Positions 1 to 8,962 of a DNA stretch of 8,962 nt are shown one piece after another. Numbering within the stretch: the first letter of the stretch is position 1; each line of letters opens with the position of its first letter. The stretch is from the sequence record NZ_CP136965.1; one strand, written 5' to 3'. Below the pieces are notes generated by a model. That model was not told the origin of the DNA. It worked only from the letters and a program-made list of their open reading frames with translations, and made no database searches. A program made the translations under genes and the position numbers. The stretch comes from a plasmid.

Positions 1-780
1 ATGAGTGAGTCTAAATATAAAAGTGTTACTAGATTTAACAATGATATAAATACTATCCCTATGAGAAATTGGACTACTGAAGAAATGAATTTTTTCTTTG
101 CTGTATTAACAAGAATGAGGGATGAAGGTACACAGACTGTAGTGATGGATAAATACGAATTAGCAGAAATGGCTCGGTATACTATAGAGCATAATCAACG
201 TTATCAATCTACGTTGCATAATTTAACTAAAAAATTACAATCACTTTCATACTTTAAAGAAACTGATAATTCCTTAGTGATGATGCCCTTATTTACATAT
301 TTTGAGGCTCATTGGAATGATGATTTATCAGATATGACCTTAGAAATAGATGTAAATAAACGGTTTGAATATATTTTAAATGAATGGAACGAGGGAAACT
401 GGACACAGTTCATGTTAGACGAATTTTTAGATATAAAATCTACTTATTCAAAAACTTTGTTTAGATTATTAAAACAATATAGAGTTGCTGGAAAACGTGA
501 TTTTAGTATCGATGAGTTCAAATCTTTAATGGATATACCTAAATCTTATTCTACTGGTATGATTACGACACGTGTTGTAGAAAAAGGGGTTAAAGATCTG
601 AAATCTTATTTTGAAAATTTAAAGGTTAATAAAATCACATCAAATAAGCGTGGTAATCCTATTATAGGATATGAATTCACTTTTGAGCCAGAACGGGTTG
701 GAGCTTGGATCGAAGATAAATATGAGCGGAAAGAAGAACCATATTTGCCGTTTAAAAAATGGTTAGAAGAGGATGTTTAA
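1..780 (+). CDS. rep: Plasmid replication initiator, Rep_3-like (iteron-binding, winged-helix)
   Basis: 259-aa ORF. The N-terminal stretch NDINTIPMRNWTTEEMNFFFAVLTRM fits the Rep_3 N-terminal pattern. The C-terminal stretch FSIDEFKSLMDIPKSYSTGMITTRVVEKGVKDLKSY...KRGNPIIGYEFTF fits the Rep_3 C-terminal winged-helix signature (F..EF..L.IP.SY....I..RV....EL....KKGR.I..F.F). Copy 1 has its promoter at the end of copy 2, which is seen for copy 2 at 4426..4483. It sits directly downstream of the 21-bp iterons. Family assigned from remembered motifs, not from a search. Confidence 0.85.
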   Translation: MSESKYKSVTRFNNDINTIPMRNWTTEEMNFFFAVLTRMRDEGTQTVVMDKYELAEMARYTIEHNQRYQSTLHNLTKKLQSLSYFKETDNSLVMMPLFTYFEAHWNDDLSDMTLEIDVNKRFEYILNEWNEGNWTQFMLDEFLDIKSTYSKTLFRLLKQYRVAGKRDFSIDEFKSLMDIPKSYSTGMITTRVVEKGVKDLKSYFENLKVNKITSNKRGNPIIGYEFTFEPERVGAWIEDKYERKEEPYLPFKKWLEEDV

Positions 781-786
781 CTTAAT

Positions 787-802
787 AATGCTCTAGAGCA
801 TT
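787..802. repeat. Perfect 16-bp palindrome AATGCTCTAGAGCATT just after the rep stop codon
   Basis: The sequence is its own reverse complement. It sits 7 nt after the rep stop and has no T-run after it, so it is a poor intrinsic terminator. It may be a protein-binding site or a weak hairpin. Confidence 0.6.
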
Positions 803-822
803 ATAATATACAATGACGCACT

Positions 823-876
823 ATTTAAAAGTTATAAGCGTCTAAACAGTCTCTAGCAACTTGATTATAGCTAAAA
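823..876. repeat. Dispersed repeat A-prime, homologous to 2573..2646
   Basis: ATTTAAAAGTTATAAGC is an identical 17-mer at 823..839 and 2573..2589. It is followed by similar GTCTAAACAGTCTCTAGCAAC versus CTTTAAACTGCTTATAGCGAC, and later by ATAGCTAAA in both. Confidence 0.7.
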
Positions 877-1060
877 CTACTTAAATTTAAGCAAAATTAA
901 ATAGTAGATCTGTTTTTTGCAATTCGAGATGTGATAGAAAAAGAAAAAAATAACCCAACTAGTAGTACACATAATGAGATTATTCTTCATTTGAAGCTTA
1001 ATTAGTGCATACGCCATATATACTATGTAAAAAATATAATATTTAAAGTGAATTTAAAAA

Positions 1061-1089
1061 TTGAAAACGTTTTACAAAAAATATATGCT
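1061..1089 (+). promoter_or_regulatory. Putative sigma-A promoter of the small-peptide operon
   Basis: TTGAAA at 1061..1066, a 17-nt spacer, and TATGCT at 1084..1089. SD AAAGGAG at 1095..1101 and ATG at 1109 follow. Confidence 0.4.
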
Positions 1090-1108
1090 GTTTTAAAGGA
1101 GTAGAATT

Positions 1109-1216
1109 ATGAATAAACTTATTATTTATATTGTCAGTGTAATTTTAGTTTCAATTTTAGGTTTTTTAAGTATAAAAGCTAATGATAATCAACCTGCTAG
1201 TTTTTTAAAGAACTAA
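1109..1216 (+). CDS. 35-aa hydrophobic single-TM peptide (MNKLIIYIVSVILVSILGFLSIKANDNQPASFLKN)
   Basis: ATG with SD AAAGGAG seven nt upstream. An N-terminal transmembrane helix is followed by a polar tail, an architecture typical of Fst/Ldr-like membrane peptides. It is below the ORF-track length cutoff and was found by reading the sequence. Confidence 0.5.
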   Translation: MNKLIIYIVSVILVSILGFLSIKANDNQPASFLKN

Positions 1217-1306
1217 AAAGAATGGCAGGAATTTTATTTATTGATTCTATACTTATTTTTTTAGCAGTATATTTTCATTACAATTAAAAAGGAAGTTGGT
1301 TGGGTC

Positions 1307-1486
1307 ATGAAAGAAAGATTATTGTGGTTGTTAGTATATATAATTTGTTTATTAATTTTATATACTGTTAATTTTAAATTTGATATGTACTCATGGTATA
1401 TATTAACTTTTATAGCTTTAGGAATAGGACTAATTTCTTATATTTCATTAGAGTTAAAGATTAGTAAAAATAAAGAAGAGCATTAA
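1307..1486 (+). CDS. 59-aa two-TM small membrane protein (MKERLLWLLVYIICLLILYTVNFKFDMYSWYILTFIALGIGLISYISLELKISKNKEEH)
   Basis: ATG at 1307 with SD AAAGGAAG at 1288..1295. It has two hydrophobic segments and a charged C-terminus. The stop codon lies inside the bidirectional terminator hairpin. Confidence 0.5.
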   Translation: MKERLLWLLVYIICLLILYTVNFKFDMYSWYILTFIALGIGLISYISLELKISKNKEEH

Positions 1487-1504
1487 ATGCTCTTCTTTAT
1501 TTTG
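1472..1504. terminator. Bidirectional rho-independent terminator shared by convergent genes
   Basis: Stem AAGAAGAGCA (1473..1482) pairs with TGCTCTTCTT (1488..1497) around loop TTAAA. A T-run follows on the plus strand (TATTTT) and an A-run precedes it, which gives a U-run on the minus strand. It sits between the peptide operon (plus) and the secreted-protein gene (minus). Confidence 0.65.
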
Positions 1505-1973
1505 GTGTAGCGGTAAAATGGCTTACTACATAATATTTATCAGTTCCTTTTCTCAGGTATCTGTAATGTGCGGTTAATTTAAAATTTTTAGCACTTGATT
1601 TTTTCAAAGTATTATTAAGTTGATCAGAAGAATGAGGCAAAGTACTTGCAATTATAGTGGAGGCTACTCCTGTTGCTATAGATGCATAAGGAGATAAAGG
1701 AATAGCTATTAATGTTCCACCGAGAGATATACTAACGTCTCTTGTTATTTTATTACCAGTAGCTTGCTTAGCGATTTTATTTAATTCTGCTCTAGTGACG
1801 GTTGTAGATGTAGTGAAACCCTTTGTACCATATTTTTTATATAGTTTTGGAGATGCCCAAATTGTTTCACCAGCTGCTTTGGCTTTATTATGCTGGTTAG
1901 TCTCTGGAACAATCATTAATAGAACTGCAAAAACAAGAAAAACAGATAATGTTTTTTTGAAATAGGTATTCAT
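1497..1973 (-). CDS. 158-aa protein with Sec-type signal peptide and an internal hydrophobic segment; hypothetical secreted or membrane-anchored protein
   Basis: The ORF track gives 1497..2015. I place the start at the internal Met (MNTYFKK...) at 1973 because SD TAGGGAGGC (plus 1981..1989) lies 7 nt upstream of it. The track's upstream ATG has no SD and lies upstream of the predicted -10. Signal peptide: n-region MNTYFKK, h-region TLSVFLVFAVLLMIV, AKA-A cleavage motif. The internal stretch ISLGGTLIAIPLSPYASIATGVASTIIASTL may be a transmembrane segment. The C-terminal tail is basic. I do not recognise the family. Confidence 0.7.
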   Translation of the reverse strand: MNTYFKKTLSVFLVFAVLLMIVPETNQHNKAKAAGETIWASPKLYKKYGTKGFTTSTTVTRAELNKIAKQATGNKITRDVSISLGGTLIAIPLSPYASIATGVASTIIASTLPHSSDQLNNTLKKSSAKNFKLTAHYRYLRKGTDKYYVVSHFTATPK

Positions 1974-2013
1974 AGATAACGCCTCCCTAATATTTTGAAT
2001 TTTCTTACATTTC

Positions 2014-2042
2014 ATTATATTATCATAGTATATTATTAAAAA
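2014..2042 (-). promoter_or_regulatory. Putative promoter of the secreted-protein gene
   Basis: On the minus strand, a weak -35 TTTTTA (plus 2037..2042), a 17-nt spacer and TATAAT (plus 2014..2019). This gives a 5' UTR of about 33 nt carrying SD GGGAGG. Confidence 0.35.
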
Positions 2043-2248
2043 TATACTATTTAGGAGGATATGCAGATATTACTTTCACAAAAACAAGAATTGATACTTA
2101 TCATATGGGAGAGAAACTATATAGCAGATATGTAACTTCTAAAAAAATTCATGACACATACTTACTCGTAAAATATAAATAAAAGAAAAACTAACGCATA
2201 GGATAATGTCTTTACATAGCAAATAAAGACATCTAAATACCTTAATCA

Positions 2249-2277
2249 TGTTAGAAATTAATAGATCATGTTATAAT
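2249..2277 (+). promoter_or_regulatory. Strong extended -10 promoter (TGtTATAAT) for the candidate sRNA
   Basis: TG at 2269..2270, then T, then TATAAT at 2272..2277. A -35-like GTTAGA/TTAGAA lies at 2250..2256. Confidence 0.55.
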
Positions 2278-2283
2278 GTAATT

Positions 2284-2350
2284 AACAAATTTAGAAGTTC
2301 TATCATAGAACACACAAACCCCATCAGTCTGCATACTGATGGGGTTTTTT
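2284..2350 (+). ncRNA. Candidate small RNA of about 67 nt with an intrinsic terminator
   Basis: The predicted TSS is about 7 nt after TATAAT. The body contains the inverted repeat GTTCTAT-C-ATAGAAC. It ends in a strong terminator: stem AACCCCATCAGT (2317..2328), loop CTGCAT, stem ACTGATGGGGTT (2335..2346), then TTTT (2347..2350). No ORF with an SD lies inside it. Confidence 0.45.
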
Positions 2351-2446
2351 GTGCCTAAATTTAGGGCAACTGTTTACTTGTTGTGATGCGTATCTAGGTA
2401 ACGCTCTATCACTAACAAGATGACACCGACAATAATTGGTGCCACG

Positions 2447-2494
2447 AACAAATTTAGAAGTTCGTAAACCATAGAACACACCCCCTTTCGGGGC
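2447..2494. repeat. Degenerate paralogous copy of the sRNA body (B element)
   Basis: AACAAATTTAGAAGTTC is identical at 2284..2300 and 2447..2463. It is followed in both by CATAGAACACAC and a C4...G4 hairpin; here the hairpin is CCCC-TTTC-GGGG. On the minus strand this reads CCCC-GAAA-GGGG, a GNRA tetraloop, followed by a U-rich stretch. B has no promoter and no T-tail. Confidence 0.6.
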
Positions 2495-2572
2495 AGTTGC
2501 CATGTATGAGTATATCGGTTAAATATATACTACATCAATGCTTTATAGCCATTTAACTGATAACTATGCATG

Positions 2573-2646
2573 ATTTAAAAGTTATAAGCCTTTAAACTGC
2601 TTATAGCGACCTTAGATTTAGTTATTTAAGTCTAAAATAGCTAAAG
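2573..2646. repeat. Dispersed repeat B-prime, homologous to 823..876
   Basis: Shares the 17-mer ATTTAAAAGTTATAAGC and flanking similarity with A-prime. It contains the small hairpin ATAAGC-N9-GCTTAT. Confidence 0.7.
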
Positions 2647-2665
2647 AATCTGATTTAGTAGAAGT

Positions 2666-3094
2666 TTATAAATCATCAATTGTTATTCTTTGAAATCTTT
2701 TATCTTCCCTTTTTTCTACTAGTTCTTCTTTTTGTATTTTATTGTCGTTCATTAATTTATTTCTGTAATGTCTATCAATAGCTTCTTTACCTTTTATGGC
2801 TCTTAAAGAATCTCCATAATATAAATTAGAAACTTTAAGTTCCTGACGTTCCATCATGGAATAAGTAAATTGTATGTTCAGTTCTAATAAAGATTTAAGG
2901 TGCTTTACTTCATCAACAATTTGTTTATTTGTATAGTTATCTTCATTTTCTAAATCTAAAAGAGTTAAAATCGCATGTCTTAAAAACTCTGACCTTGTAA
3001 TGTATTTGTGTTTATTTTTCAGAATATGGATATCTAATTCCTTTAACAGATCTGTATCAATATCAAAATTTAATCGTTTAATTTCTTTAGTCAT
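2666..3094 (-). CDS. 142-aa ribbon-helix-helix (CopG/Arc/MetJ-like) DNA-binding protein with an extended charged C-terminal domain
   Basis: N-terminal KRLNFDIDTDLLKELDIHILKNKHKYITRSEFLRHAILTLL fits a beta-strand / helix A / turn / helix B RHH fold. SD GGGAGAGAG (plus 3100..3108) lies 5 nt upstream. The start ATG overlaps the upstream gene's stop by 8 nt (ATGACTAA), which indicates translational coupling. Family called from the motif only. Confidence 0.75.
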   Translation of the reverse strand: MTKEIKRLNFDIDTDLLKELDIHILKNKHKYITRSEFLRHAILTLLDLENEDNYTNKQIVDEVKHLKSLLELNIQFTYSMMERQELKVSNLYYGDSLRAIKGKEAIDRHYRNKLMNDNKIQKEELVEKREDKRFQRITIDDL

Positions 3095-3371
3095 TATTAC
3101 TCTCTCCCATTCCTAAAAGTTCTTTAAGCATATTTGCATGTATTTCATGCCAAATGTTTAATTCATTAATAGCTTTATTTTGTTTGTTCAACATTCTACT
3201 GACATCTGTTAGTACTCTTCTTTGTTCTATTTTTTGAGAATTACTATATTCTTCAGTGATATCTTCTCGAATTAAATTTAGTATATATTCATTCATGGAT
3301 ACGTCTTTTTTTTTAGCAATTTCTGAAAGATATGAATGTAATTCTGATGGTAAACGTAGTAGAAAATTCAT
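3087..3371 (-). CDS. 94-aa ribbon-helix-helix protein with a C-terminal coiled-coil-like helix
   Basis: N-terminal FLLRLPSELHSYLSEIAKKKDVSMNEYILNLIRED is a classic RHH motif. The C-terminal half (QKIEQRRVLTDVSRMLNKQNKAINELNIWHEIHANMLKELL) is helical with heptad-like spacing. SD AGGGGAGA lies just upstream. It is the first gene of a two-gene operon and sits directly downstream of the palindrome array. Confidence 0.75.
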   Translation of the reverse strand: MNFLLRLPSELHSYLSEIAKKKDVSMNEYILNLIREDITEEYSNSQKIEQRRVLTDVSRMLNKQNKAINELNIWHEIHANMLKELLGMGESNND

Positions 3372-3392
3372 AAAATCTCCCCTTTATTATTT

Positions 3393-3586
3393 AATTAAAA
3401 ATTAATCATACAATGATAAATACACTTTTATTTTAACTTATACCGATTAAAAATTAATCAAACTACTTAAAAACGATATCATTAACGATTAATTTCTAAT
3501 CATAAGATTAATATTTAATCATTTGGTTTGTCAATAGAAAAACAGTTGGCACTGCCAACTTATCACTCATGATTAATTTTTAATCA
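3393..3586. promoter_or_regulatory. Array of five 16-bp palindromes, consensus GATTAA-N4-TAATCA, upstream of the RHH operon (operator or centromere-like)
   Basis: Site 1 at 3393..3408 (AATTAA-AAAT-TAATCA). Site 2 at 3445..3460 (GATTAA-AAAT-TAATCA). Site 3 at 3487..3502 (GATTAA-TTTC-TAATCA). Site 4 at 3506..3521 (GATTAA-TATT-TAATCA). Site 5 at 3571..3586 (GATTAA-TTTT-TAATCA, extended to the perfect 9-3-9 inverted repeat CATGATTAA-TTT-TTAATCATG at 3568..3588). Site 1 overlaps the likely -10 (TATGAT on minus, plus 3405..3410) of the RHH operon. Confidence 0.7.
3544..3560. repeat. GC-rich perfect palindrome AGTTGGCA-C-TGCCAACT inside the palindrome array
   Basis: An 8-1-8 perfect inverted repeat between site 4 and site 5. 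It is unusually GC-rich for this replicon. Confidence 0.6.
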
Positions 3587-3599
3587 TGAAAAGTGATAT

Positions 3600-4160
3600 T
3601 GTTTTTCCTTATGCTCTTTAAAAAAGACAAAAAATGGGCTGTTTCTTCAAAAAAAGTGAATTGGAATTTAAGATTTTTGTAACAATCTCTTATGATTTTT
3701 TGAGATTTAAGCCTTAAAAATTTCTAAAAAAGAATATTAAAAATGCTAAATTTCGAAAAATAATTCACTCTTAAATCTGATTCACTTTTTAAATCAATTC
3801 TTAAAAAATATCTCCTGTAAGCTCAAATTTTGACATCAAAATTAAATAAATACCCCGTATCCGAATTTTCAGGAAACGGAAAACTCTCTCTGAAAAGACC
3901 TATTCTTTTTCTTTTAATGGCCATGTAAGCGCTTGATTTAAGCTTAAAAAATACTTTAGGTATAAAAACACCTAAAATAAATTAGAATCGCTTAGAATGG
4001 CTTATTTAGGTTTATAGCTATGTTTAACCTCCTTAATTAAGCTTCAAAAATCATTTAAAGGCTCTTAGACGCTTTATTTTCTTTTCTACTACCTTTTTAT
4101 GCTTAAAAGATTTTTTAAGCGTTCTGAGACTCTTATTTAGAGTTAAAGATTAATTAAAAG
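3600..4160. repeat. About 560-bp non-coding AT-rich region with dispersed short motifs
   Basis: No ORF with an SD. TTAAGC(C)TTAAAAA occurs three times (about 3704, 3938, 4038). CTTAGAAT is tandemly repeated at 3983..4010. AAGCGTTCTGAGAC (4116..4129) and TTAGACGCTT (4066..4075, the inverse of AAGCGTCTAA at 838..847) share a motif with repeat A-prime. Confidence 0.5.
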
Positions 4161-4162
4161 TT

Positions 4163-4183
4163 GGTTTATGAGAACAAAATGTC
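4163..4183 (+). repeat. Distal fifth iteron (GGTTTATGAGAACAAAATGTC)
   Basis: A 21/21 match to the iteron unit, 137 bp upstream of the main iteron array, on the other side of the (CG)4 tract and the AT-rich element. Confidence 0.75.
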
Positions 4184-4217
4184 ATTAATTAAAATATAAA
4201 ATATTGGTGTGTTTTTT

Positions 4218-4233
4218 CGCGCGCGCACGTACA
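4218..4233. other. Alternating purine-pyrimidine tract CGCGCGCGCACGTACA (Z-DNA-prone; GC island in AT-rich DNA)
   Basis: Sixteen nt of perfect pyrimidine/purine alternation including (CG)4. It lies immediately 5' of a 45-bp 100% A+T stretch. Confidence 0.6.
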
Positions 4234-4235
4234 AC

Positions 4236-4280
4236 TATATTTAAATAATATTTAATATAATATTTATATATATATTTAGA
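4236..4280. other. DNA unwinding element of the origin (45 bp, 100% A+T)
   Basis: TATATTTAAATAATATTTAATATAATATTTATATATATATTTAGA lies between the distal iteron and the iteron array. Confidence 0.65.
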
Positions 4281-4319
4281 CACCTTATAAACATTGATAT
4301 GATAACCTTTATAAGACCT

Positions 4320-4413
4320 TATGAGAACAAAATGTCGGTTTATGAGAACAAAATGTCGGTTTATGAGAACAAAATGTCGGTTTATGAGAACAAAATGTCG
4401 GTTTATGAGAACG
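4320..4413 (+). repeat. Origin iterons: 4 x 21-bp TATGAGAACAAAATGTCGGTT plus a 10-bp partial
   Basis: Perfect direct repeats at 4320, 4341, 4362 and 4383, with partial TATGAGAACG at 4404..4413. The 21-bp period is two helical turns. The array sits immediately upstream of rep. Confidence 0.9.
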
Positions 4414-4425
4414 TTTTTTTATATA

Positions 4426-4483
4426 TTGTTCTCATAAACTTTTTATGATATTATAAGAACATAAAAATAAGAGGTGTTCTTAT
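4426..4483 (+). promoter_or_regulatory. rep promoter with inverted half-iteron and operator inverted repeat spanning the SD and start codon
   Basis: -35 TTGTTC at 4426..4431, a 17-nt spacer, -10 TATTAT at 4449..4454. The inverted half-iteron GTTCTCATAAAC at 4428..4439 overlaps the -35. The inverted repeat ATAAGAACA (4453..4461) / TGTTCTTAT (4475..4483) brackets SD AAGAGGTG and includes the rep ATG. The half-sites resemble the iteron core TAT(G/A)AGAAC. This is the classic Rep autorepression layout. Confidence 0.6.
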
Positions 4484-5261
4484 GAGTGAGTCTAAATATA
4501 AAAGTGTTACTAGATTTAACAATGATATAAATACTATCCCTATGAGAAATTGGACTACTGAAGAAATGAATTTTTTCTTTGCTGTATTAACAAGAATGAG
4601 GGATGAAGGTACACAGACTGTAGTGATGGATAAATACGAATTAGCAGAAATGGCTCGGTATACTATAGAGCATAATCAACGTTATCAATCTACGTTGCAT
4701 AATTTAACTAAAAAATTACAATCACTTTCATACTTTAAAGAAACTGATAATTCCTTAGTGATGATGCCCTTATTTACATATTTTGAGGCTCATTGGAATG
4801 ATGATTTATCAGATATGACCTTAGAAATAGATGTAAATAAACGGTTTGAATATATTTTAAATGAATGGAACGAGGGAAACTGGACACAGTTCATGTTAGA
4901 CGAATTTTTAGATATAAAATCTACTTATTCAAAAACTTTGTTTAGATTATTAAAACAATATAGAGTTGCTGGAAAACGTGATTTTAGTATCGATGAGTTC
5001 AAATCTTTAATGGATATACCTAAATCTTATTCTACTGGTATGATTACGACACGTGTTGTAGAAAAAGGGGTTAAAGATCTGAAATCTTATTTTGAAAATT
5101 TAAAGGTTAATAAAATCACATCAAATAAGCGTGGTAATCCTATTATAGGATATGAATTCACTTTTGAGCCAGAACGGGTTGGAGCTTGGATCGAAGATAA
5201 ATATGAGCGGAAAGAAGAACCATATTTGCCGTTTAAAAAATGGTTAGAAGAGGATGTTTAA
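4482..5261 (+). CDS. rep: Plasmid replication initiator, Rep_3-like (copy 2)
   Basis: Identical copy of 1..780. SD AAGAGGTG lies at 4469..4476, five nt before the ATG at 4482. Iterons lie immediately upstream. Confidence 0.85.
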   Translation: MSESKYKSVTRFNNDINTIPMRNWTTEEMNFFFAVLTRMRDEGTQTVVMDKYELAEMARYTIEHNQRYQSTLHNLTKKLQSLSYFKETDNSLVMMPLFTYFEAHWNDDLSDMTLEIDVNKRFEYILNEWNEGNWTQFMLDEFLDIKSTYSKTLFRLLKQYRVAGKRDFSIDEFKSLMDIPKSYSTGMITTRVVEKGVKDLKSYFENLKVNKITSNKRGNPIIGYEFTFEPERVGAWIEDKYERKEEPYLPFKKWLEEDV

Positions 5262-5267
5262 CTTAAT

Positions 5268-5283
5268 AATGCTCTAGAGCATT
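5268..5283. repeat. Perfect 16-bp palindrome (copy 2)
   Basis: Copy of 787..802. Confidence 0.6.
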
Positions 5284-5303
5284 ATAATATACAATGACGC
5301 ACT

Positions 5304-5357
5304 ATTTAAAAGTTATAAGCGTCTAAACAGTCTCTAGCAACTTGATTATAGCTAAAA
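5304..5357. repeat. Dispersed repeat A-prime (copy 2)
   Basis: Copy of 823..876. Confidence 0.7.
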
Positions 5358-5541
5358 CTACTTAAATTTAAGCAAAATTAAATAGTAGATTTGTTTTTTG
5401 CAATTCGAGATGTGATAGAAAAAGAAAAAAATAACCCAACTAGTAGTACACATAATGAGATTATTCTTCATTTGAAGCTTAATTAGTGCATACGCCATAT
5501 ATACTATGTAAAAAATATAATATTTAAAGTGAATTTAAAAA

Positions 5542-5570
5542 TTGAAAACGTTTTACAAAAAATATATGCT
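5542..5570 (+). promoter_or_regulatory. Putative promoter of the small-peptide operon (copy 2)
   Basis: Copy of 1061..1089. Confidence 0.4.
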
Positions 5571-5589
5571 GTTTTAAAGGAGTAGAATT

Positions 5590-5697
5590 ATGAATAAACT
5601 TATTATTTATATTGTCAGTGTAATTTTAGTTTCAATTTTAGGTTTTTTAAGTATAAAAGCTAATGATAATCAACCTGCTAGTTTTTTAAAGAACTAA
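5590..5697 (+). CDS. 35-aa hydrophobic peptide (copy 2)
   Basis: Copy of 1109..1216. Confidence 0.5.
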   Translation: MNKLIIYIVSVILVSILGFLSIKANDNQPASFLKN

Positions 5698-5787
5698 AAA
5701 GAATGGCAGGAATTTTATTTATTGATTCTATACTTATTTTTTTAGCAGTATATTTTCATTACAATTAAAAAGGAAGTTGGTTGGGTC

Positions 5788-5967
5788 ATGAAAGAAAGAT
5801 TATTGTGGTTGTTAGTATATATAATTTGTTTATTAATTTTATATACTGTTAATTTTAAATTTGATATGTACTCATGGTATATATTAACTTTTATAGCTTT
5901 AGGAATAGGACTAATTTCTTATATTTCATTAGAGTTAAAGATTAGTAAAAATAAAGAAGAGCATTAA
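5788..5967 (+). CDS. 59-aa small membrane protein (copy 2)
   Basis: Copy of 1307..1486. Confidence 0.5.
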   Translation: MKERLLWLLVYIICLLILYTVNFKFDMYSWYILTFIALGIGLISYISLELKISKNKEEH

Positions 5968-5985
5968 ATGCTCTTCTTTATTTTG
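5953..5985. terminator. Bidirectional terminator (copy 2)
   Basis: Copy of 1472..1504. Confidence 0.65.
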
Positions 5986-6454
5986 GTGTAGCGGTAAAAT
6001 GGCTTACTACATAATATTTATCAGTTCCTTTTCTCAGGTATCTGTAATGTGCGGTTAATTTAAAATTTTTAGCACTTGATTTTTTCAAAGTATTATTAAG
6101 TTGATCAGAAGAATGAGGCAAAGTACTTGCAATTATAGTGGAGGCTACTCCTGTTGCTATAGATGCATAAGGAGATAAAGGAATAGCTATTAATGTTCCA
6201 CCGAGAGATATACTAACGTCTCTTGTTATTTTATTACCAGTAGCTTGCTTAGCGATTTTATTTAATTCTGCTCTAGTGACGGTTGTAGATGTAGTGAAAC
6301 CCTTTGTACCATATTTTTTATATAGTTTTGGAGATGCCCAAATTGTTTCACCAGCTGCTTTGGCTTTATTATGCTGGTTAGTCTCTGGAACAATCATTAA
6401 TAGAACTGCAAAAACAAGAAAAACAGATAATGTTTTTTTGAAATAGGTATTCAT
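5978..6454 (-). CDS. 158-aa signal-peptide protein (copy 2)
   Basis: Copy of 1497..1973. Confidence 0.7.
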   Translation of the reverse strand: MNTYFKKTLSVFLVFAVLLMIVPETNQHNKAKAAGETIWASPKLYKKYGTKGFTTSTTVTRAELNKIAKQATGNKITRDVSISLGGTLIAIPLSPYASIATGVASTIIASTLPHSSDQLNNTLKKSSAKNFKLTAHYRYLRKGTDKYYVVSHFTATPK

Positions 6455-6494
6455 AGATAACGCCTCCCTAATATTTTGAATTTTCTTACATTTC

Positions 6495-6523
6495 ATTATA
6501 TTATCATAGTATATTATTAAAAA
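6495..6523 (-). promoter_or_regulatory. Putative promoter of the secreted-protein gene (copy 2)
   Basis: Copy of 2014..2042. Confidence 0.35.
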
Positions 6524-6729
6524 TATACTATTTAGGAGGATATGCAGATATTACTTTCACAAAAACAAGAATTGATACTTATCATATGGGAGAGAAACTA
6601 TATAGCAGATATGTAACTTCTAAAAAAATTCATGACACATACTTACTCGTAAAATATAAATAAAAGAAAAACTAACGCATAGGATAATGTCTTTACATAG
6701 CAAATAAAGACATCTAAATACCTTAATCA

Positions 6730-6758
6730 TGTTAGAAATTAATAGATCATGTTATAAT
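6730..6758 (+). promoter_or_regulatory. Extended -10 promoter for the candidate sRNA (copy 2)
   Basis: Copy of 2249..2277. Confidence 0.55.
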
Positions 6759-6764
6759 GTAATT

Positions 6765-6831
6765 AACAAATTTAGAAGTTCTATCATAGAACACACAAAC
6801 CCCATCAGTCTGCATACTGATGGGGTTTTTT
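6765..6831 (+). ncRNA. Candidate small RNA (copy 2)
   Basis: Copy of 2284..2350. Confidence 0.45.
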
Positions 6832-6927
6832 GTGCCTAAATTTAGGGCAACTGTTTACTTGTTGTGATGCGTATCTAGGTAACGCTCTATCACTAACAAG
6901 ATGACACCGACAATAATTGGTGCCACG

Positions 6928-6975
6928 AACAAATTTAGAAGTTCGTAAACCATAGAACACACCCCCTTTCGGGGC
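6928..6975. repeat. B element (copy 2)
   Basis: Copy of 2447..2494. Confidence 0.6.
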
Positions 6976-7053
6976 AGTTGCCATGTATGAGTATATCGGT
7001 TAAATATATACTACATCAATGCTTTATAGCCATTTAACTGATAACTATGCATG

Positions 7054-7127
7054 ATTTAAAAGTTATAAGCCTTTAAACTGCTTATAGCGACCTTAGATTT
7101 AGTTATTTAAGTCTAAAATAGCTAAAG
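7054..7127. repeat. Dispersed repeat B-prime (copy 2)
   Basis: Copy of 2573..2646. Confidence 0.7.
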
Positions 7128-7146
7128 AATCTGATTTAGTAGAAGT

Positions 7147-7575
7147 TTATAAATCATCAATTGTTATTCTTTGAAATCTTTTATCTTCCCTTTTTTCTAC
7201 TAGTTCTTCTTTTTGTATTTTATTGTCGTTCATTAATTTATTTCTGTAATGTCTATCAATAGCTTCTTTACCTTTTATGGCTCTTAAAGAATCTCCATAA
7301 TATAAATTAGAAACTTTAAGTTCCTGACGTTCCATCATGGAATAAGTAAATTGTATGTTCAGTTCTAATAAAGATTTAAGGTGCTTTACTTCATCAACAA
7401 TTTGTTTATTTGTATAGTTATCTTCATTTTCTAAATCTAAAAGAGTTAAAATCGCATGTCTTAAAAACTCTGACCTTGTAATGTATTTGTGTTTATTTTT
7501 CAGAATATGGATATCTAATTCCTTTAACAGATCTGTATCAATATCAAAATTTAATCGTTTAATTTCTTTAGTCAT
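7147..7575 (-). CDS. 142-aa RHH-domain protein (copy 2)
   Basis: Copy of 2666..3094. Confidence 0.75.
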   Translation of the reverse strand: MTKEIKRLNFDIDTDLLKELDIHILKNKHKYITRSEFLRHAILTLLDLENEDNYTNKQIVDEVKHLKSLLELNIQFTYSMMERQELKVSNLYYGDSLRAIKGKEAIDRHYRNKLMNDNKIQKEELVEKREDKRFQRITIDDL

Positions 7576-7852
7576 TATTACTCTCTCCCATTCCTAAAAG
7601 TTCTTTAAGCATATTTGCATGTATTTCATGCCAAATGTTTAATTCATTAATAGCTTTATTTTGTTTGTTCAACATTCTACTGACATCTGTTAGTACTCTT
7701 CTTTGTTCTATTTTTTGAGAATTACTATATTCTTCAGTGATATCTTCTCGAATTAAATTTAGTATATATTCATTCATGGATACGTCTTTTTTTTTAGCAA
7801 TTTCTGAAAGATATGAATGTAATTCTGATGGTAAACGTAGTAGAAAATTCAT
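7568..7852 (-). CDS. 94-aa RHH protein (copy 2)
   Basis: Copy of 3087..3371. Confidence 0.75.
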   Translation of the reverse strand: MNFLLRLPSELHSYLSEIAKKKDVSMNEYILNLIREDITEEYSNSQKIEQRRVLTDVSRMLNKQNKAINELNIWHEIHANMLKELLGMGESNND

Positions 7853-7873
7853 AAAATCTCCCCTTTATTATTT

Positions 7874-8067
7874 AATTAAAAATTAATCATACAATGATAA
7901 ATACACTTTTATTTTAACTTATACCGATTAAAAATTAATCAAACTACTTAAAAACGATATCATTAACGATTAATTTCTAATCATAAGATTAATATTTAAT
8001 CATTTGGTTTGTCAATAGAAAAACAGTTGGCACTGCCAACTTATCACTCATGATTAATTTTTAATCA
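7874..8067. promoter_or_regulatory. GATTAA-N4-TAATCA palindrome array (copy 2)
   Basis: Copy of 3393..3586. Confidence 0.7.
8025..8041. repeat. GC-rich palindrome (copy 2)
   Basis: Copy of 3544..3560. Confidence 0.6.
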
Positions 8068-8080
8068 TGAAAAGTGATAT

Positions 8081-8641
8081 TGTTTTTCCTTATGCTCTTT
8101 AAAAAAGACAAAAAATGGGCTGTTTCTTCAAAAAAAGTGAATTGGAATTTAAGATTTTTGTAACAATCTCTTATGATTTTTTGAGATTTAAGCCTTAAAA
8201 ATTTCTAAAAAAGAATATTAAAAATGCTAAATTTCGAAAAATAATTCACTCTTAAATCTGATTCACTTTTTAAATCAATTCTTAAAAAATATCTCCTGTA
8301 AGCTCAAATTTTGACATCAAAATTAAATAAATACCCCGTATCCGAATTTTCAGGAAACGGAAAACTCTCTCTGAAAAGACCTATTCTTTTTCTTTTAATG
8401 GCCATGTAAGCGCTTGATTTAAGCTTAAAAAATACTTTAGGTATAAAAACACCTAAAATAAATTAGAATCGCTTAGAATGGCTTATTTAGGTTTATAGCT
8501 ATGTTTAACCTCCTTAATTAAGCTTCAAAAATCATTTAAAGGCTCTTAGACGCTTTATTTTCTTTTCTACTACCTTTTTATGCTTAAAAGATCTTTTAAG
8601 CGTTCTGAGACTCTTATTTAGAGTTAAAGATTAATTAAAAG
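8081..8641. repeat. AT-rich motif-bearing non-coding region (copy 2)
   Basis: Copy of 3600..4160. Position 8593 is C where 4112 is T. Confidence 0.5.
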
Positions 8642-8643
8642 TT

Positions 8644-8664
8644 GGTTTATGAGAACAAAATGTC
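8644..8664 (+). repeat. Distal iteron (copy 2)
   Basis: Copy of 4163..4183. Confidence 0.75.
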
Positions 8665-8698
8665 ATTAATTAAAATATAAAATATTGGTGTGTTTTTT

Positions 8699-8714
8699 CG
8701 CGCGCGCACGTACA
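8699..8714. other. Alternating CG tract (copy 2)
   Basis: Copy of 4218..4233. Confidence 0.6.
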
Positions 8715-8716
8715 AC

Positions 8717-8761
8717 TATATTTAAATAATATTTAATATAATATTTATATATATATTTAGA
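8717..8761. other. DNA unwinding element (copy 2)
   Basis: Copy of 4236..4280. Confidence 0.65.
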
Positions 8762-8800
8762 CACCTTATAAACATTGATATGATAACCTTTATAAGACCT

Positions 8801-8894
8801 TATGAGAACAAAATGTCGGTTTATGAGAACAAAATGTCGGTTTATGAGAACAAAATGTCGGTTTATGAGAACAAAATGTCGGTTTATGAGAACG
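8801..8894 (+). repeat. Origin iterons (copy 2)
   Basis: Copy of 4320..4413. Confidence 0.9.
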
Positions 8895-8906
8895 TTTTTT
8901 TATATA

Positions 8907-8962
8907 TTGTTCTCATAAACTTTTTATGATATTATAAGAACATAAAAATAAGAGGTGTTCTT
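8907..8962 (+). promoter_or_regulatory. rep promoter/operator (copy 2, cut by the window end; would drive copy 1 of rep on a circle)
   Basis: Copy of 4426..4483, cut 2 nt short of the ATG. Confidence 0.6.

What the first reader, a model, noticed from the sequence alone, without database searches (positions are those of the whole stretch)
2666..3590. Two translationally coupled RHH proteins behind an array of five GATTAA-N4-TAATC palindromes: candidate minimal partition, regulatory or mobilisation-accessory module
Seen in sequence:
- Two overlapping genes (ATGACTAA overlap) of 94 and 142 aa both begin with unmistakable ribbon-helix-helix motifs.
- The 94-aa protein adds a coiled-coil-like C-terminal helix.
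- The 142-aa protein adds an approximately 90-aa charged domain I cannot place.
- Upstream are five near-identical 16-bp palindromes (GATTAA-N4-TAATCA) spread over about 195 bp. One is extended to a perfect 9-3-9 inverted repeat, and one overlaps the operon's -10.
- A separate GC-rich palindrome lies among them.

Interpretation:
- A single autoregulated operator would not need five spaced sites. Multi-site arrays in front of an RHH gene are the hallmark of centromeres bound by ParR/ParG-type adaptors (type Ib and type II partition).
- No ParA or ParM NTPase exists anywhere on this 4.5-kb replicon.
- This could therefore be (a) an NTPase-independent partition system of the single-protein kind described for staphylococcal pSK1 par, but built on RHH plus coiled coil rather than HTH plus coiled coil. 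It could instead be (b) an RHH antitoxin with an unconventional RHH-fused toxin, or (c) a pair of oriT accessory proteins (MobC/NikA-type RHH) serving a relaxase supplied in trans.
- I cannot discriminate among these from sequence.
Basis: partly seen in the sequence, partly recalled or inferred. Interest (0 to 1): 0.78.

Follow-up and report, generated by a model that had tools for sequence, protein, structure and literature searches.

The report
Relaxase-less transfer origin with own adaptors
The palindrome array and the two small DNA-binding proteins most likely form a conjugative transfer origin plus its two accessory proteins on a small Nosocomiicoccus plasmid that has no nicking enzyme of its own, so it probably borrows one from a conjugative element in the same genus.

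Summary
The window is a 4,481-bp plasmid written out twice. It holds two overlapping RHH genes (94 and 142 aa, minus strand) behind five GATTAA-N4-TAATC palindromes.

At 3608-3618 lies CTTATGCTCTT, the exact published oriT core of the pWBG749/pLS20 plasmid family (MobL/MobP2 relaxases). Immediately 5' of it is that family's three-way hairpin junction, supported by covariation across eight lineages.

In Nosocomiicoccus and Mammaliicoccus conjugative elements the same layout (core, hairpins, a lineage-specific palindrome array, RHH1, RHH2) runs straight into a MobL relaxase gene. The 94-aa protein is a SmpO homologue. The 142-aa protein occupies the pLS20 Aux2 position but shows no sequence similarity to Aux2. 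Its RHH end is divergent, while its C-terminal domain is about 97% identical in DNA to the helpers' copy.

The plasmid has no relaxase. The partition and toxin-antitoxin readings are not supported. A candidate Fst-type toxin elsewhere on the plasmid may account for stability.

This is a new variant of a known kind, with precedents in pCERC7/NikA and MGIVchHai6/MobI. No function has been tested experimentally.

The parts
3608..3618 (+). oriT core 5'-CTTATGCTCTT-3' (second copy at 8089-8099). The nic site is presumed to lie in or near it.
   Evidence: Exact 11/11 match to the core defined for pWBG749, pMG2200, pHTbeta, pGL5 and pMC189 (PMC4652767). Present once per unit with 0 expected. The same core is found in pWBG731, pNARUSE (pLS20-like) and all Nosocomiicoccus/Mammaliicoccus relatives. 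Its role as the nic site is inferred. In pLS20 the mapped nick lies about 45 nt away on the other strand (PMC5313138).
3537..3607 (+). Three-way ssDNA junction: outer stem 3537-3544/3600-3607, invariant GC hairpin 3545-3559, and variable hairpin 3561-3598, which encloses palindrome 5 (the 9-3-9 repeat at 3568-3588).
   Evidence: DNA fold -20.2 kcal/mol, z -6.0. The opposite strand gives z -5.6. The same architecture is predicted in 8 lineages and in pWBG731. Covariation: 97% of cells paired, 10/21 pairs changed on both sides, 0/500 shuffles, slid controls 32-55% paired.
3393..3520 (.). Accessory-repeat array: palindromes 1-4 (3393-3407, 3445-3459, 3487-3501, 3506-3520), lying between the junction and the RHH operon.
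   Evidence: Centre spacings are 52, 42, 19 and 65 bp. Sites 1, 2, 3 and 5 sit at 0, 4.95, 8.95 and 16.95 helical turns. The 42 + 52/53 bp geometry recurs with different motifs in L014, L015, L004, L016 and L013. Binding by the 142-aa protein is inferred from motif/beta-strand co-variation.
3475..3480 (.). GATATC, a second copy of the variable-hairpin arm motif (TATCA..., direct repeat 3477-3503 vs 3561-3587). It lies midway between palindromes 2 and 3 and is a candidate ossA-like site.
   Evidence: D5, 84-bp spacing, 85% identity. One search shows an arm-motif copy at the equivalent position in all 7 lineages. The analogy is to the SmpO ossA/ossB sites with their GNNNNC motif (PMC8136818). 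Binding by the 94-aa protein is inferred.
3087..3371 (-). 94-aa RHH protein with a long C-terminal helix: a SmpO/Aux1-type relaxosome accessory factor. RBS at 3377-3382.
   Evidence: hhalign against SmpO: 94.8% probability, E 5.4e-8. Against pLS20-type Aux1: 60.5%. RHH fold supported. Homologues are the first gene after the oriT in relaxase operons.
2666..3094 (-). 142-aa protein: N-terminal RHH (about residues 5-52), then a conserved helical C-terminal domain (about 59-121) and a charged tail. It is the second accessory factor, in the position of pLS20 Aux2.
   Evidence: Homologues lie between the SmpO-like gene and the MobL relaxase. Against helper copies the N-terminus is 31-36% identical and the C-terminal domain 81-86%. 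DNA identity at nt 241-360 is 28-30 per 30 nt, against about 15-18 per 30 in the N-terminal part. No similarity to pLS20 Aux2. The family is tiny.

Best explanation
Window 3393-3618, together with the two genes at 2666-3371, is a complete 'cis plus adaptor' half of a conjugative relaxosome of the pWBG749/pLS20 (MobL/MobP2) family. It sits on a 4.5-kb Rep3 theta plasmid of Nosocomiicoccus massiliensis that encodes no relaxase, coupling protein or pore.

Shown:
- the exact family core CTTATGCTCTT;
- a covarying three-way hairpin junction directly 5' of the core;
- an in-phase array of lineage-specific palindromes;
- homology of the 94-aa protein to the oriT-specificity factor SmpO;
- the same core-junction-array-RHH1-RHH2 layout leading into a MobL relaxase in conjugative elements of the same genus.

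Inferred mechanism:
1. The 142-aa protein binds the GATTAA-N4-TAATC palindromes through its RHH ribbon. One of these palindromes lies inside the variable hairpin next to the core.
2. The 94-aa SmpO-like protein binds the GATATC-containing hairpin arm and its second copy 84 bp away.
3. Together they bend or wrap about 190 bp of DNA into a plasmid-specific nucleoprotein platform. Because the array abuts their own RBS, they probably also repress their own operon.
4. The parts that are invariant across the clade are read by proteins supplied in trans by a co-resident conjugative element. [quoted passage not shown] The trans-supplied proteins are the 99%-conserved MobL relaxase, probably the conserved third RHH protein, and the coupling protein and T4SS.
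5. The relaxase nicks, and the plasmid is mobilised.

By carrying its own adaptors with a private DNA specificity, the plasmid does not need to match the oriT specificity of any particular helper.
For: - Core: exact match, 0 expected, as defined in PMC4652767. The same core occurs in pWBG731 and in a pLS20-like plasmid.
- Junction: fold z -6.0 and covariation in 10/21 pairs, 0/500 shuffles.
- Synteny: homologous pairs at about 60% identity lie directly upstream of a MobL relaxase (Pfam E 3e-83) inside elements with TraC-like, SSB, CHAP-lysozyme, TopA, sortase and primase genes. The arrangement oriT, 94 aa, 146-aa RHH, MobP2 relaxase is also found in Mammaliicoccus pWo27-9, with four GTCTGCT-N4-AGCAGAC palindromes.
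- SmpO homology of the 94-aa protein.
- Specificity-cassette pattern between helpers L002 and L004: relaxase 99.4%, RHH3 95.8%, but Aux1-like 31.5% and the Aux2-like N-terminus 36%. This mirrors pWBG749 and pWBG745, where SmpO and not the relaxase sets specificity (PMC4652767).
- Motif/protein co-variation across 7 lineages. The window and L014 share both the RLNFDIDTD strand and the GATTAA motif. L004 and L016 share VTFST and GYGACT-type motifs. L015 and L002 share the Aux1 strand but have different palindromes.
- Conserved 42/52-bp array geometry.
- Sibling plasmid pDSM19163_1 keeps the core and junction but lacks exactly 2654-3540. In that place it carries repeat arrays of three lineages.
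- Helper and plasmid co-occur in one assembly (L004 and L008, ERZ27315926) and in one species.
- An artificial oriT-smpO clone is mobilised by a non-cognate helper (PMC4652767, Table 3).
- pLS20 Aux1/Aux2 are two RHH proteins of similar sizes that are essential for transfer (PMC5675868).
Against: - No experiment exists for this plasmid or genus. Mobilisation, DNA binding and nicking are all inferred.
- The 142-aa protein has no detectable sequence similarity to pLS20 Aux2. Its C-terminal fold could not be modelled with confidence (pLDDT below 50 beyond residue 88; fold search empty).
- The nic position and the transferred strand are unresolved. pLS20's mapped nick lies about 45 nt from the core on the opposite strand (PMC5313138), and both strands fold equally well here.
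- The oriT is inverted relative to the RHH genes compared with pWBG749 and pLS20. This is clade-wide and includes the conjugative elements.
- The protein-to-site assignment rests on only seven lineages.
- Helpers carry a third RHH gene that the plasmid lacks. If that protein acts only in cis or needs a site missing here, transfer could fail.
Confidence: 0.78

Rival explanations
1. Decayed remnant. The module is a fossil of a conjugative or mobilisable element that lost its relaxase. The two proteins now act only as autorepressors or plasmid regulators, and the plasmid is no longer transferred.
For: The plasmid lacks the relaxase and the third RHH gene found in all conjugative relatives. The last palindrome abuts the RBS, so autoregulation is plausible.
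Against: - Both ORFs are intact and 99-100% conserved across dozens of independent assemblies with different cargo.
- The core, the GC hairpin and the junction pairing are perfectly maintained, with compensatory changes.
- The module also occurs on a contig without a Rep3 gene (L014).
Confidence: 0.1
2. NTPase-independent partition or positioning system. The RHH proteins bind the palindrome array as a centromere and improve segregational stability, either as their sole role or as a second job alongside transfer. A comparable case is R388 StbA, which binds repeats next to oriT (recalled from my own knowledge, not checked here).
For: There is a multi-site, helically phased array, no ParA/ParM, and a protein with a long oligomerising helix.
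Against: - The same array geometry sits in front of relaxase operons in conjugative elements.
- One palindrome lies inside the oriT hairpin next to the core.
- The related plasmid pDSM19163_1 lacks both genes yet is maintained.
- A candidate Fst-type type I toxin-antitoxin offers a separate stability function.
- No homology to ParR, ParG or pSK1 Par was found.
Confidence: 0.07
3. Type II toxin-antitoxin pair: a 94-aa HicB-like RHH antitoxin with the 142-aa protein as an unconventional toxin. This follows the public annotation of the 94-aa protein as a 'HicB family antitoxin'.
For: Pfam HicB E 2.9e-7, the NCBI name, and overlapping two-gene operon architecture.
Against: - The HicB hit covers only the generic RHH segment: protein residues 2-33, profile positions 19-50 of 51.
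- There is no HicA or any other toxin domain.
- The second protein itself begins with an RHH.
- In relatives the pair is the first part of a relaxase operon.
Confidence: 0.03

Closest known systems
pWBG749-family oriT and oriT mimics with the specificity factor SmpO (Staphylococcus aureus; O'Brien 2015 PMC4652767; Yui Eto 2021 PMC8136818)
   Same: - Identical 11-nt core.
- Branched IR1-IR3 hairpin immediately 5' of the core, with one conserved GC hairpin and one variable core-proximal hairpin carrying a specificity site.
- Further sites and accessory repeats upstream. One site pair here is 65 bp apart, matching the reported 65-67 bp ossA-ossB spacing.
- The RHH factor is homologous to the 94-aa protein (hhalign 94.8%).
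- The relaxase belongs to the same MobP2/MobL family.
- Small non-conjugative plasmids exploit the relaxase in trans.
   Different: - The described staphylococcal mimics carry only DNA, and SmpO comes from the helper. This plasmid encodes the factors itself.
- It has two RHH proteins rather than one.
- The oriT is inverted relative to the RHH genes, so the repeats overlie their promoter region.
- The repeat motif is a 15-bp palindrome present five times.
pLS20 relaxosome module oriT-aux1-aux2-rel (Bacillus subtilis; PMC5313138, PMC5675868, PMC8829557)
   Same: - Two consecutive N-terminal-RHH proteins of similar sizes (about 10.6 and 18.6 kDa there, about 11 and 17 kDa here) lie between the oriT and a MOBL relaxase.
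- The core CTTATGCTCTT is present.
- The smaller protein binds one specific site, while the larger one binds a region with several repeats.
- The larger protein has an RHH plus a helical oligomerisation domain, TraM-like.
   Different: - No sequence similarity between the 142-aa protein and Aux2, and only weak similarity between the 94-aa protein and Aux1.
- There is no relaxase on this plasmid.
- The oriT orientation is inverted.
pCERC7-type small E. coli plasmids with the R64 oriT and nikA only (Moran & Hall 2017, cited in PMC11389934 and PMC10123127), and MGIVchHai6 with its own MobI (cited in bioRxiv 10.64898/2026.01.13.699239)
   Same: These are relaxase-less hitchers that carry an oriT together with their own relaxosome accessory protein and borrow the helper's relaxase. 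NikA is also an RHH protein.
   Different: - They are Gram-negative systems using MOBP/IncI or IncC machinery, with a single accessory protein.
- In pCERC7 the oriT and NikA are the same as the helper's.
- Here the adaptors have a DNA specificity not seen on any helper found so far.

Membership tests
pWBG749/pLS20-type oriT (MobL/MobP2, 'MOB_MG' relaxases) | Conserved core 5'-CTTATGCTCTT-3' | tested here: met
   Exact match at 3608-3618, 0 expected by chance. Definition from PMC4652767.
pWBG749/pLS20-type oriT (MobL/MobP2, 'MOB_MG' relaxases) | Branched (three-way) hairpin IR1-IR3 directly 5' of the core | tested here: met
   Fold z -6.0. The same structure is predicted in 8 lineages and in pWBG731. 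Covariation in 10/21 pairs, 0/500 shuffles.
pWBG749/pLS20-type oriT (MobL/MobP2, 'MOB_MG' relaxases) | Accessory repeats or accessory-protein sites upstream of the hairpins, adjacent to an RHH accessory gene | tested here: met
   Five palindromes plus a duplicated hairpin-arm motif. The orientation relative to the gene is inverted compared with pWBG731 and pNARUSE.
pWBG749/pLS20-type oriT (MobL/MobP2, 'MOB_MG' relaxases) | Cognate MobL/MobP2 relaxase encoded next to the oriT | tested here: not met
   No relaxase ORF or remnant in the window. A relaxase is present next to the homologous module in L002, L004, L013 and L020. The locus is therefore filed as an oriT mimic or mobilisable module, not as a self-sufficient MOB locus.
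pWBG749/pLS20-type oriT (MobL/MobP2, 'MOB_MG' relaxases) | Nicked by the relaxase and mobilised by a helper | not testable with these tools
   Requires mating and nicking assays.
SmpO-type relaxosome accessory factor (94-aa protein) | N-terminal RHH followed by a helical oligomerisation region; homology to SmpO | tested here: met
   (RHH fold, helix 26-85). hhalign against SmpO gives 94.8% probability, E 5.4e-8 over 66 columns.
SmpO-type relaxosome accessory factor (94-aa protein) | Tetramer that binds GNNNNC-centred sites in the variable hairpin arm and about 65 bp upstream | tested here: inconclusive
   A GATATC motif lies at 3475-3480 and a related TATCAC arm in the variable hairpin, 84 bp apart. 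No binding data exist.
pLS20 Aux2 / F TraM-like connector (142-aa protein) | Sequence homology to Aux2_LS20 | tested here: not met
   hhalign probability 0.15%. No PDB sequence hit beyond the RHH.
pLS20 Aux2 / F TraM-like connector (142-aa protein) | N-terminal RHH plus a two-helix C-terminal tetramerisation domain | tested here: inconclusive
   The RHH is supported. Helices at 56-83 and 98-121 are predicted, but pLDDT is below 50 after residue 88. The fold search was uninformative.
pLS20 Aux2 / F TraM-like connector (142-aa protein) | Encoded between the first accessory gene and the relaxase | tested here: met
   True for the homologues in L002, L004, L013, L015 and L016.
HicAB type II toxin-antitoxin (public annotation of the 94-aa protein) | HicA toxin partner, and a HicB N-terminal domain in addition to the DNA-binding domain | tested here: not met
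   No HicA anywhere on the plasmid. The HicB hit covers only the RHH part, profile positions 19-50 of 51.
ParR/ParG-type partition adaptor with centromere | Partner ParM/ParA NTPase, or homology to ParR/ParG | tested here: not met
   No NTPase ORF is present, and there are no ParR/ParG hits.

The most novel reading that the evidence does not exclude
A natural 'bring-your-own-adaptor' hitcher in Gram-positives. The plasmid encodes two modular adaptors. Their RHH ends read a private DNA code found only on small plasmids. The helper-facing end of the larger adaptor, its C-terminal domain, is kept nearly identical to the helpers' by recombination. This would let the plasmid recruit the relaxase and coupling protein of any conjugative element of the clade, whatever that helper's own oriT specificity, and possibly compete with the helper for them. 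The same genus would then show the opposite strategy as well: pDSM19163_1 has no adaptors and stacks the binding arrays of three different helpers behind one nic region.
Probability: 0.45. Interest if true: 0.65.

Novelty: new variant of a known kind. Interest (0 to 1): 0.5.

Why it matters
Most small plasmids of Firmicutes look non-mobilisable because they lack a relaxase. The staphylococcal work showed that DNA-only oriT mimics explain much of this gap. It also showed that a mimic works only with helpers whose SmpO matches it.

A plasmid that carries the specificity factors itself would escape that restriction. If the mechanism is confirmed, tools that classify mobility by relaxase or by known oriT sequence would misclassify such plasmids; PLSDB already types the related pDSM19163_1 as non-mobilizable. 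Annotation pipelines that name the 94-aa gene a HicB antitoxin would mislabel transfer genes.

The locus also offers a compact natural system for study. It has two adaptors, about 230 bp of DNA, several swapped specificity cassettes and near-identical relaxases. It could be used to ask how RHH accessory factors encode oriT specificity and which surface contacts the relaxase or coupling protein.

Tried and rejected
- PDB sequence search with the 142-aa protein: no hit at E<=10.
- tblastn of the 142-aa protein against 72,556 plasmids: no match.
- AF2 monomer model of the 142-aa protein: pLDDT 61, C-terminal part below 50. Foldseek with it returned only noise, best E about 5.
- hhalign of the 142-aa family against pLS20-type Aux2: no relationship.
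- PADLOC: nothing meaningful.
- Promoter consensus scan: no minus-strand promoter upstream of the operon, so the claimed -10 overlap could not be verified.
- Metagenome scan for the double GATTAA palindrome: 8 hits, none with the core or GC hairpin, so they are unrelated.
- Folding of the non-coding region 3619-4300 as a possible single-strand initiation site: z -1.6, unremarkable.
- Using folding to decide the transferred strand: both strands fold equally well.
- Partition reading: considered and rejected because the array geometry is shared with relaxase operons.
- HicAB toxin-antitoxin reading: considered and rejected because only the RHH segment matches and no toxin is present.
Full report
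**1. What is in the window**

The 8,962-base window is two head-to-tail copies of a 4,481-bp circular replicon that differ at two positions. GC content is 27%. One unit carries:
- a Rep3-family initiator at 1-780 (Pfam Rep3_N E 2e-20), with 21-bp iterons at 4319-4423;
- a few tiny membrane peptides and a 172-aa secreted protein of unknown function;
- the two minus-strand genes of the finding: 94 aa at 3087-3371 and 142 aa at 2666-3094, overlapping by ATGACTAA.

Both exact proteins are in NCBI under Nosocomiicoccus massiliensis. Their public names are 'HicB family antitoxin' and 'ribbon-helix-helix domain-containing protein'.

**2. Checking the observation**

- All five GATTAA-N4-TAATC palindromes are present, at 3393, 3445, 3487, 3506 and 3571. 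The count is 20 strand-hits against 1.08 expected. Site 1 has one mismatch.
- The 9-3-9 perfect repeat is at 3568-3588 and the GC-rich palindrome at 3545-3559.
- The RHH assignment is solid for the 94-aa protein and weaker but consistent for the 142-aa protein.
- The claimed -10 overlap could not be verified.

**3.

At 3608-3618 on the + strand the sequence reads CTTATGCTCTT (none expected by chance). O'Brien et al. defined exactly this 11-mer as the oriT core shared by pWBG749, pMG2200, pHTbeta, pGL5 and pMC189. In those plasmids it is preceded by IR1-IR3, which form a branched ssDNA hairpin, and by accessory repeats (PMC4652767).

I found the same core in pWBG731, a named pWBG749-family plasmid, and in a pLS20-like Bacillus plasmid.

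In the window the core is immediately preceded by a three-way junction:
- outer stem 3537-3544 / 3600-3607;
- the 'separate GC-rich palindrome' at 3545-3559;
- a variable hairpin at 3561-3598, whose inner part is palindrome 5.

As ssDNA it folds at -20.2 kcal/mol, z = -6.0.

**4. Related loci**

The protein family is tiny and confined to Nosocomiicoccus, but its contexts are informative.
- In two contigs of 29-39 kb (L002, L004), a homologous pair at about 60% identity lies directly upstream of a third small RHH gene and a 462-aa MobL relaxase (Pfam E 3e-83). The surrounding element carries TraC-like, SSB, CHAP-lysozyme, TopA, sortase and primase genes.
- Mammaliicoccus sciuri pWo27-9 has the arrangement oriT, 94 aa, 146-aa RHH, MobP2 relaxase.
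- This relaxase family also includes the S. aureus pWBG749-type, B. subtilis pLS20-type and enterococcal plasmids.
- The gene order CHAP, two hypothetical genes, [oriT], RHH gene(s), relaxase is shared by all of them.

Upstream of every such pair I found the same sequence elements: AAAGAGCATAAGG, the invariant GTTGGCAsTGCCAAC hairpin, a variable hairpin, an outer stem, and then an array of palindromes whose sequence is specific to each lineage.

Across eight lineages the junction is 97% paired. Ten of 21 pairs change on both sides, 0/500 shuffles reach this, and slid controls drop to 32-55% paired.

**5. The proteins**

*The 94-aa family.* It is homologous to SmpO (hhalign 94.8%, E 5e-8) and weakly similar to pLS20-type Aux1 (60%). 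SmpO is the experimentally established oriT-specificity factor of pWBG749. It forms tetramers and binds GNNNNC-centred sites in the core-proximal hairpin arm and 65-67 bp upstream (PMC8136818).

*The 142-aa family.* It occupies the position of pLS20 Aux2 and has a comparable size and an N-terminal RHH, but no detectable sequence similarity to Aux2. Aux2 is an RHH protein with a TraM-like tetramerisation domain (PMC8829557).

It is strikingly mosaic:

| Region, compared with helper copies | Identity |
|---|---|
| N-terminal RHH (protein) | 31-36% |
| Residues 59-121 (protein) | 81-86% |
| nt 241-360 (DNA) | 28-30 of every 30 nt |
| N-terminal part (DNA) | about half |

Near-identity at synonymous sites suggests recent recombination rather than purifying selection alone.

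**6. A specificity cassette**

Identities between the two almost identical helpers L002 and L004:

| Component | Identity |
|---|---|
| Relaxase | 99.4% |
| Third RHH | 95.8% |
| Upstream 266-aa gene | 99.2% |
| SmpO-like protein | 31.5% |
| Aux2-like RHH end | 36% |

Their palindromes and variable hairpins also differ. This is the pWBG749/pWBG745 pattern in a more extreme form (PMC4652767).

The window plasmid carries exactly the variable parts: the array, the variable hairpin and the two adaptors. It also carries the invariant DNA, which is the GC hairpin and the core. It lacks every invariant protein, and no relaxase remnant is present.

**7. Which protein binds what (inferred)**

*Palindromes track the larger protein's beta-strand*:
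- The window and L014 share the strand RLNFDIDTD and the GATTAA-N4-TAATC motif.
- L004 and L016 share VTFST and related GYGACT-N3-ARTCRC motifs.
- L015, L002 and pWo27-9 each have a unique strand and a unique motif.

*The hairpin arm tracks the SmpO-like protein.* L015 and L002 share the SmpO-like strand (KFLLR) although their palindromes differ. That strand instead tracks the hairpin-arm motif: GATATCA-like in five lineages, and GGCACAAAA in the two KRINLR lineages.

*Geometry is conserved.* A second copy of the arm motif always lies midway between the two palindromes that are 42 bp apart. The 42 + 52/53-bp spacing holds whatever the motif. In the window, sites 1, 2, 3 and 5 lie at 0, 4.95, 8.95 and 16.95 helical turns.

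I therefore propose that the 142-aa protein binds the palindromes and the 94-aa protein binds the arm motif. This parallels pLS20, where Aux1 binds one inverted repeat and Aux2 binds a region with three repeats (PMC5675868).

**8. Independent support from a sibling plasmid**

N. ampullae pDSM19163_1 (2.6 kb) shares the Rep gene, the origin, the core and junction, and an Fst-like region with the window. It lacks exactly window 2654-3540, which is both genes and palindromes 1-4. In that place it carries three different arrays in series:
- its own type;
- an L015-type array with the same 42/53 spacing;
- an L002-type array.

So the array and adaptor block is a swappable module, with one breakpoint at the GC hairpin.

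Helper and plasmid co-occur in one assembly (L004 and L008, ERZ27315926). N. massiliensis NP2 carries a helper-type relaxase locus.

**9. Caveats**

- Nothing here has been tested experimentally.
- The nic position is unsettled. O'Brien et al. inferred that it lies in the core. In pLS20 the mapped nick is about 45 nt downstream on the template strand (PMC5313138).
- Both strands fold equally well, so the transferred strand is not known.
- Compared with pWBG749 and pLS20, the oriT of this clade is inverted relative to the RHH genes. This places the array over the operon's promoter region and makes autoregulation likely, as proposed for SmpO and recalled (not checked here) for TraM and TraY.
[quoted passage not shown] Its proposed helper-facing role rests on conservation and on the Aux2/TraM analogy.

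**10. Comparison with known systems, and novelty**

The oriT passes the sequence and structure criteria of the pWBG749/pLS20 family. It fails only the criterion of an adjacent relaxase, which makes it an oriT-mimic type of element.

Relaxase-less hitchers that carry their own accessory factor are already known in Gram-negatives. Examples are pCERC7 with NikA and MGIVchHai6 with MobI (cited in PMC11389934, PMC10123127 and bioRxiv 10.64898/2026.01.13.699239). An artificial oriT-smpO clone is mobilised by a non-cognate pWBG749 helper (PMC4652767).

What appears new:
- a natural Gram-positive MobL-family example with two adaptors;
- a DNA specificity not seen on any helper found here;
- a mosaic second adaptor from an otherwise unknown sequence family.

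I rate it a new variant of a known kind, of moderate interest. The partition and toxin-antitoxin readings are not supported.

Noticed in passing
window 2260-2510 (ORF 2374-2472, minus strand): A 32-aa ORF, MVYELLNLFVAPIIVGVILLVIERYLDTHHNK, hits Pfam Fst_toxin at E 4e-4, below the gathering score. It lies inside a full-length sub-threshold Rfam match to Enterococcus sRNA RefB11 (2345-2501, E 1.6e-5). It is flanked by 17-nt direct repeats at 2284 and 2447 and a terminator-like hairpin at about 2311-2347. This is a candidate par(pAD1)-like type I toxin-antitoxin and the likely stability module of the plasmid. The region is conserved in pDSM19163_1 (84%).
   Followed up: partly
L001 (N. ampullae pDSM19163_1, NZ_CP079111.1), about 2150-2626 and 1-130: This 2.6-kb plasmid has one oriT core and junction and no RHH genes. 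Behind the junction it carries three different repeat arrays: its own TGTGTGT-type (x4), an L015-type GAGTA-N5-TACTC array (x3, same 42/53 spacing), and an L002-type TTGACTCA array (x2, 52 bp apart). It looks like a multi-specificity oriT mimic aimed at several helpers. PLSDB types it as non-mobilizable.
   Followed up: partly
window 787-860 and 2537-2610: A 74-nt direct repeat (72% identity) brackets the variable cargo segment: small membrane peptides, the 172-aa secreted protein and the Fst-like locus. Sibling plasmids carry different cargo between conserved backbone parts. These may be recombination sites for cargo exchange.
   Followed up: no
L002 8438-8728, L004 8441-8731, L020 219-509: The conjugative elements encode a third small RHH protein of 96 aa between the Aux2-like gene and the relaxase. 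It is 95.8% conserved between helpers whose other adaptors are only 31-36% identical, and it is absent from the small plasmids. It may read the invariant GC hairpin or core together with the relaxase.
   Followed up: partly
L017 (pNARUSE) 1292-1627 and L019 (pWBG731) 1976-2230, compared with window 3393-3618: The oriT is inverted relative to the accessory genes in the Nosocomiicoccus/Mammaliicoccus clade. In pWBG749 and pLS20 types the order is repeats, hairpins, core, gene. Here it is core, hairpins, repeats, gene. This changes which DNA would enter the recipient first.
   Followed up: partly
window 1-8962: The record is a head-to-tail dimer of the plasmid with two single-base differences, 910 C/T and 4112 T/C. 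This could be an assembly artefact of a circular molecule, a mixed population, or a true dimer. In NCBI each gene accordingly appears twice.
   Followed up: partly
window 3087-3371 (public annotation): NCBI and UniRef name the 94-aa protein 'toxin-antitoxin system HicB family antitoxin'. The Pfam HicB match covers only the RHH segment and no HicA is present, so the name is probably misleading for a relaxosome accessory factor.
   Followed up: yes
L014 (SRR23636711 contig, 3262 bp): This contig carries a second relaxase-less copy of the module, with GATTAA-type palindromes and 62% identical proteins. It has no Rep3 gene. Next to the module is a 248-aa protein with only a C-terminal HTH hit, and the cargo is different. 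Its variable hairpin is of the pDSM19163_1 type. This suggests further shuffling of oriT sub-modules.
   Followed up: partly
L005 (ENA scaffold, 19.9 kb): One metagenome scaffold joins the small-plasmid sequence, with two Rep3 copies, to SLFN/AlbA-ATPase and acetyltransferase genes. It may be a cointegrate, a multimer or a misassembly.
   Followed up: no
window 4211-4232: A short GC-rich island, ttttttcgcgcgcgcacgtacaac, lies within the very AT-rich region between an isolated iteron copy (4166-4186) and the iteron array. Its function is unknown.
   Followed up: no
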